64,000 nucleotides of DNA, taken from assembly GCA_951406725.2 (NCBI GenBank), contig OX597827.1, positions 48,298,001-48,362,000 of the forward strand, in the 5' to 3' direction. The notes beneath the pieces are model-generated. The model was not told the origin of the DNA and searched no databases. It saw nothing but the letters and a program-made list of their open reading frames with translations. Positions 50,159 to 50,759 of this stretch are shown here, piece by piece (the stretch's first letter is position 1; each line of letters opens with the position of its first letter). The DNA is from Octopus vulgaris. Lineage: Eukaryota. The position numbers and the translations under genes were made by a program.

Positions 50159-50759
50159 ATTTATATATAGAGGGCATTATTATACATAGATGCCACACGC
50201 TAAGAGGGACAAAAAGTCATTTCTACCAAAAATTTTACTAATCCCACCGAATGCAATCTTTCAAAGCTAGATATTTAAAAAATATAGACTTGTATCACCT
50301 GTGATTTCGTACTTACGTACTCCTCAGCAAGCCTGAACGTATCATAAATAAACGACCCTGTCTCGTCGACGCCAAGCAGCTAACTGTTCAACGTCAACGA
50401 AGCACATAGGGGAGTTTACATATATTACATCCGGTAAATGGCGGCTTCTTCGAATTGCATTTCGGCTAGGAAAAGTTTTTTCGGAATAAAATTATTTAGC
50501 AATTAAGGACAACTTCTTAATAAGGAATCTTAATAAGAAATTATCAGGTAGATAGCGTGAAAACCTCATAAGAGAAAAATTTCGAAAATAATTCTTTCTT
50601 ATTGAACATATTAATTTATATATAGAGGGCATTATTATACATAGATGCCACACGCTAAGAGGGACAAAAAGTCATTTCTACCAAAGATTTTACTAATCCG
50701 CTATCTACCTGATAATTTCTTATTAAGATTCCTTATTAAGAAGTTGTCTTTAATTGCTA
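50159..50759 (-). mobile_element. Retrozyme-like element (family R): partial tandem of a ~455-nt unit plus an inverted terminal copy, in (TA)n
   Basis: Direct repeat 50159-50244 / 50614-50699, inverted repeat 50497-50557 / 50699-50759, one HHR, no ORF. Confidence 0.8.
50286..50334 (-). ncRNA. Consensus minimal type I hammerhead ribozyme
   Basis: AGGCUUG-CUGAGGA-GUAC(GUAA)GUAC-GAAA-UCACAGGUGA-UA^CAAGUCU. 7-bp helix I, GNRA-capped helix II, near-palindromic helix III. Confidence 0.88.

What the first reader, a model, noticed from the sequence alone, without database searches (positions are those of the whole stretch)
50159..50759. Best retrozyme candidate: ~455-nt ORF-less unit, head-to-tail junction, perfect minimal hammerhead
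Read on the minus strand, the sequence runs from the 3' part of one unit (50699-50497) straight into the 5' part of the next. It passes a fully consensus HHR (50334-50286) and repeats 86 bp at a period of 455 nt. The unit end at 50497 matches the end that joins (TA)n in the 24.5-kb relative and in the inverted 61-bp terminal copy. A greater-than-unit-length, circularly permuted copy is what reverse transcription around a circular or tandem RNA would leave (inference from the known retrozyme model).
Basis: partly seen in the sequence, partly recalled or inferred. Interest (0 to 1): 0.85.

Follow-up and report, generated by a model that had tools for sequence, protein, structure and literature searches.

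The report
Octopus hammerhead retrozyme spread Penelope-style
This is one of over a thousand scattered copies of a protein-less, ~460-base mobile element that carries a conserved hammerhead ribozyme motif (predicted to self-cleave) and sits in TA microsatellites, and the shape of its insertions suggests it is likely copied from a small circular RNA by enzymes borrowed from Penelope-like retrotransposons, a known but never directly proven route.

Summary
Observation confirmed; retrozyme reading largely supported. The stretch is a 541-nt arm (1.2 units, period 455) plus a 61-65-nt inverted arm, inserted in (TA)n. It belongs to a dispersed ORF-less family: 1,259 exact hits to an 18-nt hammerhead motif against 0 for the control, units 455-500 nt, longest arm 2.4 units. 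The type I hammerhead is canonical, not minimal, and covaries across subfamilies. Copies show Penelope-like (PLE) anatomy: two fixed 3' ends (about 135 and 255 nt past the cut) and head-to-head inversions. In 53 of 59 two-armed insertions one arm ends at each site. 5' ends do not pile up at the cut (8 of 90, p=0.23), and tandem-unit differences are private, so the template was likely a circle, or else an uncleaved multimer. No arm abutted a PLE ORF in 110 loci; the partner PLE was not found. Corrections: 50497 is an inferred reverse-transcription start, not a junction, and this copy has one ribozyme, so it cannot itself release the monomer. Circles and cleavage are untested. The class is known; a cephalopod member was not in my searches. 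The scan noted a ribozyme-less analogue in another genome.

The parts
50159..50699 (-). Main arm, 541 nt (1.19 units of 455 nt). 5' end at cut+48; 3' end at fixed site 1 (about cut+134), joined to (TA)n
50614..50699 (-). Upstream copy of the 86-bp direct repeat
   Evidence: 98.8%; 1 difference
50159..50244 (-). Downstream copy of the 86-bp direct repeat (period 455)
50286..50334 (-). Type I hammerhead: helix I 7 bp, core CUGAGGA, helix II 4 bp with GUAA loop, GAAA, helix III, UA; predicted cut 50293/50292
   Evidence: covariation
50493..50500 (-). Position of fixed 3'-end site 2 (about cut+253-257 of the upstream unit) inside the main arm; internal sequence here, not a junction
50699..50763 (+). 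Second, inverted (head-to-head) arm, 61-65 nt; 5' end at cut+191, 3' end at site 2, joined to (TA)n
49186..50158 (.). (AT)n microsatellite target flanking the 3' end of the main arm
50760..50820 (.). (TA)n-like microsatellite flanking the 3' end of the inverted arm
24680..25043 (+). Relative of subfamily B (unit 496-500 nt), + arm ending at site 2 in (TA)n. It carries the homologous hammerhead at about 24740-24803, with a 29-nt helix II region and the predicted cut after 24797
24460..24683 (-). Inverted arm of the 24.5-kb relative; it ends atypically inside helix II of the ribozyme

Best explanation
The stretch is one insertion of a dispersed, ORF-less hammerhead retroelement family (a non-LTR retrozyme) that is likely mobilised by the reverse transcriptase and endonuclease of an autonomous Penelope-like element, probably from a ~455-500-nt circular RNA. 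Shown: the family, its copy anatomy, the (TA)n target, two fixed 3' ends, one arm per site in inverted insertions, read-through of the cut site, and covariation of the ribozyme. Inferred: a sibling locus with two ribozymes is transcribed, self-cleaves to a cut-to-cut monomer, and is ligated to a circle. A PLE RT/GIY-YIG complex then nicks (TA)n, and each DNA end primes reverse transcription at one of two internal AT-rich sites (about 135 and 255 nt past the cut). The two cDNAs run on round the template, stop at random, and join head to head. This copy has only one ribozyme and is predicted to be a dead-end product.
For: Family: 177 matches from 40 scored of 2,278 candidates, best other copy 98%; 1,259 motif hits against 0 for the control. 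Ribozyme: 130 of 149 helix-III-anchored sites have CUGANGA; N7 varies freely (U 68, A 34, C 24, G 4); helix I pairs 1-6 are kept in 123-130 of 130 with several pair types; helix II pairs 2-4 are kept in 121-130 of 130. Five of 5 natural cut-to-cut monomers fold as circles at z -3.9 to -6.2 against shuffles. 17 of 88 consensus pairs show double-sided changes in 15 monomers. PLE signature: 93 of 99 subfamily-B arms end at (TA)n. Two-armed insertions with one arm from each site: 30 of 32, 15 of 15, 8 of 12; 53 of the 56 with both ends at a defined site, p=4e-13. This matches the published PLE tail at one end only, the inverted 5' copy and the microsatellite bias (PMC8557442, PMC3846280) and two internal RT start sites (PMC11167929). 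Template longer than one cleaved monomer: 60 of 99 arms cross at least one cut; no excess of 5' ends at the cut (8 of 90 against 6.5% background, p=0.23); 22 of 99 arms exceed one unit. Tandem units within an arm differ at 1.4-1.5% of columns and almost never by the same change in two loci (3 recurrent among 91 differences in A, 1 among 61 in B). RT+GIY-YIG PLEs with 781-aa open frames exist in the genome and sit in (TA)n.
Against: No circle, transcript end or cleavage was observed. In subfamily B, 50 of the 130 sites scored overall carry A.C instead of G-C at the first pair of helix II, a pair described as highly conserved (PMC4209133), yet B is the more numerous group (500 motif hits against 48, different motifs), so efficient cleavage may be dispensable. 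In the Anolis PLE, ribozyme mutants still insert and uncleaved RNA is the dominant substrate (PMC11167929). In Xenopus only 1 of 9 retrozyme dimers cleaved in vitro (bioRxiv 10.64898/2026.07.22.740005). The partner PLE was not identified: no pLTR similarity in 75 PLE loci beyond independent neighbouring insertions. Three two-armed insertions use the same site twice and three have one arm ending elsewhere. The structural covariation rests on a few related subfamilies, not 15 independent sequences.
Confidence: 0.62

Rival explanations
1. The same non-autonomous PLE-dependent element, but copied from uncleaved linear multimeric or read-through transcripts, or by RT template jumps between monomers, with no circle; the ribozyme acts at another step or is weak.
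For: Read-through of the cut fits equally well. A.C at the first helix II pair in many subfamily-B copies. Uncleaved RNA is the dominant substrate of the Anolis PLE in vitro (PMC11167929).
Against: Genomic arms are short (longest seen 2.4 units) and 5'-truncated at a roughly steady rate, so sources would shrink each generation unless tandems are regenerated (inference). Unit-to-unit differences are private rather than inherited from a diverged source dimer. The catalytic core and helices are conserved with compensation.
Confidence: 0.27
2. The copies are merely 5'-truncated pseudo-LTR fragments of an autonomous PLE whose ORF was missed.
For: The architecture is that of PLE ends; retrozymes resemble pLTRs in Xenopus (bioRxiv 10.64898/2026.07.22.740005); only a few hundred of over a thousand loci were read.
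Against: Arms longer than one unit continue into another unit, never into a body. Of 58 unpaired arms in 110 loci, 44 have TA within 40 nt of the 5' end, none shares an upstream flank with another locus, and 1 has a PLE protein hit within 600 nt; that one is on the other strand behind a TA run.
Confidence: 0.07
3. A satellite or DNA-level repeat (unequal crossover, MITE-like or Helitron-like) with an incidental hammerhead motif.
For: Inverted ends and (TA)n flanks superficially resemble MITEs; the preprint proposes local tandem amplification for some retrozymes.
Against: Copies are dispersed over many chromosomes, with fixed 3' ends and random 5' ends; no long arrays; RNA-level covariation.
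Confidence: 0.04

Closest known systems
Metazoan non-LTR retrozymes (Cervera & de la Pena 2020, PMC7229834; Li, Clavereau & Pollet 2026 preprint, 10.64898/2026.07.22.740005)
   Same: ORF-less head-to-tail unit with a canonical type I hammerhead, low GC (34-35%), highly self-paired monomer, thousands of motif copies, co-occurrence with autonomous PLEs.
   Different: The unit (455-500 nt) is longer than the ~170-400-nt RNAs reported, though inside the 51-972-bp range of the preprint. No long arrays (longest arm seen 2.4 units). Helix III has 4 bp instead of the usual 1-2. Each copy shows PLE-type inversion, a (TA)n target and two fixed 3' ends, which the parts of those papers I read do not describe. 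Expression and circles are untested here.
EN+ Penelope-like element insertions (pLTR, inverted 5' copy, tail; PMC8557442, PMC3846280, PMC11167929, PMC4209133)
   Same: Partial tandems, head-to-head inverted 5'-truncated arm, extension at one end only, AT-rich or (TA)n target, hammerhead in the repeat.
   Different: No ORF. The two 3' ends are about 112-123 nt apart, not 30-40. The ribozyme is canonical, whereas autonomous PLEs in this genome carry short palindromic helix III forms, several with the U3-A8 core. No sequence similarity to the pLTRs examined.
Non-autonomous Chlamys elements such as MRC1 (PMC8557442, passage)
   Same: Non-autonomous PLE derivatives forming pLTRs and multicopy head-to-tail insertions.
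   Different: Naiad/Chlamys lack canonical hammerheads and generally share 3' sequence with an autonomous family; here a ribozyme is present and no partner was found.

Membership tests
Metazoan non-LTR retrozyme | Type I hammerhead with conserved core and helices | tested here: met
   (no Rfam hit)
Metazoan non-LTR retrozyme | Head-to-tail tandem units with two or more ribozymes | tested here: met
   Met for the family (18 distinct natural cut-to-cut monomers listed); not for the window copy, which has one ribozyme
Metazoan non-LTR retrozyme | No protein-coding capacity, low GC, a few hundred bp | tested here: met
   Longest ATG frame 46 aa, GC 34.5%; units 455-500 nt
Metazoan non-LTR retrozyme | Not attached to an autonomous element body | tested here: met
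   (110 loci; a sample, not a census)
Metazoan non-LTR retrozyme | Expressed as linear and circular monomer RNA | tested here: inconclusive
   Only contigs of runs guessed to be RNA were available; they cannot show ends, strand or circles
Metazoan non-LTR retrozyme | Self-cleavage activity | not testable with these tools
   needs an in vitro assay
Minimal PLE hammerhead (min-HHR, PMC4209133) | Helix III absent or 1-2 bp with palindromic loop, short helix I, long helix II | tested here: not met
   Helix I 6-7 bp, helix II 4 bp, helix III 4 bp
Autonomous EN+ PLE | RT + GIY-YIG ORF between pLTRs | tested here: not met
PLE-mobilised element (works like) | Inverted 5'-truncated arm, extension at one end only, (TA)n target, random 5' truncation | tested here: met
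PLE-mobilised element (works like) | Shared 3' sequence with an identified autonomous partner | tested here: inconclusive
   None found in 75 PLE loci; many PLE families were not sampled

The most novel reading that the evidence does not exclude
The family is a genomic fossil record of the unsolved PLE insertion mechanism acting on a ribozyme-made RNA circle: a two-headed RT-endonuclease complex primes both ends of a (TA)n break, obligately one at each of two sites about 120 nt apart inside a conserved RNA domain, and both cDNAs roll past the ligated hammerhead junction (32 of 45 arm pairs overlap on the template, unlike L1 twin priming). That would explain PLE inversions, one-sided tails and partial tandems in one step, and give the first insertion-level evidence that animal retrozyme circles are PLE templates.
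Probability: 0.35. Interest if true: 0.75.

Novelty: new member of a known kind. Interest (0 to 1): 0.48.

Why it matters
That animal retrozymes are moved by Penelope-like elements through circular RNA has been proposed from co-occurrence and pLTR similarity (PMC7229834; 2026 preprint), and how PLE inverted and tailed insertions form is described as still undefined (PMC8557442). This family is only ~460 nt and has over a thousand fairly young copies, and its insertions give countable constraints: two start sites, one arm from each in 53 of 59 cases, and no stop at the ribozyme cut. It offers a small substrate for testing both questions in vitro, and adds a cephalopod member to the class. The class itself is not new.

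Tried and rejected
Rfam: no hammerhead match at gathering score over the window or at E<=10 over 50100-50800 (only microsatellite-driven and chance hits). RNA evidence: no RNA holder is on record. Contigs of four runs guessed to be RNA cover most of the unit, mainly as other subfamily variants. In the control lay unique flanks were near zero in those runs, and the family's depth relative to the presumed DNA run (about 0.007 in X2) was far below that of neighbouring SINE-like repeats (about 0.2). Contig depth cannot rank expression and library type is unknown, so I use this neither for nor against; it gives no hint of an unusually abundant RNA. Partner search: blastn and nhmmer of the unit or the 15-monomer profile against 75 GIY-YIG PLE loci (L061-L100, L263-L297) hit only L068, L099 and L283, read as independent neighbouring insertions. 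tblastn hits of PLE proteins near family copies (output shown only in part): five inspected by eye were all separated by TA runs; L233 and L235 were not read by eye but fall under the systematic flank test. An apparent pile-up of 5' ends at cut+10-14 was an artefact of the reference; it vanished with a reference spanning the cut. The subfamily-B part was spoiled by (TA)n in the reference and redone. The 80-nt within/between comparison was clear for A (1.5 and 1.2 differences within, 4.3 between) but not for B (2.9 and 4.6 within, 3.4 between; truncated segments and separate insertions were included), so one search was used instead. Long satellite arrays: none among the 40 best candidates. Look-ups of earlier findings by place and by sequence were blank.

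Full report
Observation. The minus strand from 50699 to 50159 is a 541-nt stretch whose first and last 86 nt are a direct repeat at period 455 (98.8%). It holds one type I hammerhead at 50334-50286 with the predicted cut between 50293 and 50292. A 61-65-nt inverted copy sits head to head at 50699-50763, and both outer ends run into (TA)n. The unit has no ORF (longest ATG frame 46 aa; GC 34.5%). Rfam does not recognise the ribozyme, and the plain MFE fold of the 81-nt region is not better than shuffles, so the case for the ribozyme rests on the motif and on covariation.

Family. The genome is 2.8 Gb and microsatellite-rich; I take it to be an octopus by inference from size and repeat content, which I did not confirm. 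A DNA search scored 40 of 2,278 candidates and returned 177 matches on many chromosomes, the best other copy at 98%. An 18-nt motif covering helix III occurs 1,259 times against 0 for the reversed control. Two main subfamilies appear: A (455-466 nt, 12-nt helix II region, the window copy) and B (496-500 nt, 29-nt helix II region, the 24.5-kb relative). The longest arm among the best candidates is 1,213 nt, about 2.4 units; no satellite array was seen.

Ribozyme and RNA structure. Among 149 distinct helix-III-anchored sites in the loci held, 130 have CUGANGA upstream. N7 takes all four bases; helix I pairs 1-6 are kept in 123-130 of 130 sites through several pair types; helix II pairs 2-4 in 121-130 of 130. 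The first helix II pair is G-C in 56, A-U in 24 and A.C in 50. The seventh helix I pair is kept in only 56 of 130. By the definitions in PMC4209133 this is a canonical, not a minimal, type I hammerhead, with a longer helix III than usual. Five natural cut-to-cut monomers fold as circles at z -3.9 to -6.2 against 40 shuffles each. An alignment of 15 of the 18 listed monomers gives 88 pairs, 17 with double-sided changes, including a long-range helix that starts just past the cut and encloses both 3'-end sites. These sequences fall into a few related subfamilies, so the changes are few events.

Insertion anatomy. In 62 subfamily-B loci taken in genome order from a 3' motif search, 99 arms were mapped; 93 are followed by a TA run, and 3' ends fall at about cut+141 or cut+253. 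In subfamily A they fall at about cut+134 or cut+257. In head-to-head two-armed insertions, one arm ends at each site in 30 of 32 (B, one local duplicate counted twice), 15 of 15 (A, motif-selected) and 8 of 12 (further A loci). Three use the same site twice and three have an arm ending elsewhere; 53 of 56 gives p=4e-13 at an even chance. The window copy obeys the rule: main arm at site 1, inverted arm at site 2. So 50497 is an inferred reverse-transcription start site, not a junction. In 32 of 45 such pairs the two arms copy overlapping parts of the unit, which a single RNA partitioned between two primers would not give (L1 twin priming recalled, not from a call).

What was the template? 60 of 99 B arms cross at least one ribozyme cut and 22 exceed one unit. 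5' ends are not enriched at the cut: 8 stops among 90 arms at risk against 6.5% per 20-nt window elsewhere, p=0.23, A and B pooled. A cleaved linear monomer is therefore not the main template. Adjacent units in one arm differ at 91 of 6,306 columns (A) and 61 of 4,011 (B), and the same ordered change recurs in two loci only 3 times and once. Offspring of a diverged genomic dimer should share such changes; repeated passes round one molecule followed by later mutation should not. This favours a circle but does not exclude template jumps or a very young homogeneous source.

Is it just a pLTR? Autonomous PLEs are abundant: 150 scored of 6,136 GIY-YIG candidates, many with 781-aa open frames carrying RT and GIY-YIG, inserted in (TA)n. 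The unit matched none of their repeats in 75 loci except as separate neighbouring insertions. Of 58 unpaired arms in 110 family loci, 44 have TA at the 5' end, none shares an upstream flank with another locus, and one has a PLE hit within 600 nt, on the other strand behind a TA run.

Mechanism, shown and inferred. Shown: dispersed ORF-less family, conserved ribozyme, (TA)n target, two fixed 3' ends used one per arm, random 5' ends, read-through of the cut. Inferred: transcription of a two-ribozyme sibling, cleavage, ligation to a circle, and priming of both ends of a PLE-made break at two internal sites. The Anolis PLE protein cuts and extends both strands, starts at two internal sites that match the genomic tail, and is predicted to be a dimer; it also inserts without ribozyme cleavage (PMC11167929), which keeps the linear-multimer rival alive, as does the A.C pair in subfamily B. 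RNA data could not decide (see Tried and rejected).

Comparison and novelty. It works like, and by the testable features is, a metazoan non-LTR retrozyme; expression and cleavage are untested. The link to PLEs was proposed in PMC7229834 and supported in the 2026 preprint, and the circle-template idea for PLE tandems is in PMC4209133. The one-sided tail and inverted copy are known PLE traits (PMC8557442, PMC3846280), with tails of 30-40 bp against 112-123 nt here. I found no description of an octopus retrozyme in the searches; the 2026 O. vulgaris repeat annotation (PMC13282606) has no 'ribozyme' in its main text or its one supplement. Repeat libraries such as Repbase or Dfam, subscription papers, and the supplements of PMC7229834 and of the preprint were not seen and may list this family.

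What I saw of each paper. Preprint 10.64898/2026.07.22.740005: parts 1-3 of 5, abstract to discussion. PMC11167929: parts 1-2 of 4. PMC4209133: parts 1-2 of 4. PMC7229834: passages and the discussion. PMC8557442 and PMC3846280: passages. PMC13282606: passages and a supplement search.

Verdict. A real feature and a new member of a known kind; interest 0.48. The most novel reading left open, an obligate two-site priming on a ribozyme-made circle, has probability about 0.35 and would deserve about 0.75.

Noticed in passing
window 47569-47599 (+): A 31-nt piece identical to the 3' half of this copy's hammerhead (50281-50311) sits inside what looks like a SINE-like repeat 2.7 kb away; possibly a locally templated insertion (reading inferred).
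   Followed up: partly
window 50879-51130 (also 15096-15165): A different, older repeat (about 80% identity to others, 2,587 candidates) with inverted arms beside the element, flanked by microsatellites; possibly another PLE-type end.
   Followed up: partly
L064/L099:4034, L068:45, L069:208 and 455, L072/L092:6230, L272:4461 and 4625, L276:491, 735 and 3962: Several other hammerhead families in this genome, many as inverted pairs, with long helix II and palindromic helix III; the large PLE family carries a U3-A8 core variant.
   Followed up: no
L091:1406-5090, L092, L093: A young, abundant autonomous PLE with a 781-aa RT+GIY-YIG frame, a separate upstream open frame of about 330-390 aa, a 452-nt pLTR and an internally repeated 3' region, inserted in (TA)n.
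   Followed up: partly
L195:577-1359 (-), L201:2423-2875 (+): A second, GC-rich GIY-YIG retroelement clade, about 25-30% identical to the first, with 16,097 candidates and open frames up to 1,392 aa.
   Followed up: partly
window 7365-9589 (+): Broken endonuclease and reverse-transcriptase frames that look like a CR1/L2-type LINE (family name recalled, not tested).
   Followed up: no
L197:1460-1919: A short two-armed insertion is duplicated locally 368 bp apart; it counts twice.
   Followed up: yes
window 360-1039: 299-nt inverted repeat, 99% complementary, 82 nt apart, with a 243-nt inverted match at 46683-46925 to 58-300.
   Followed up: no
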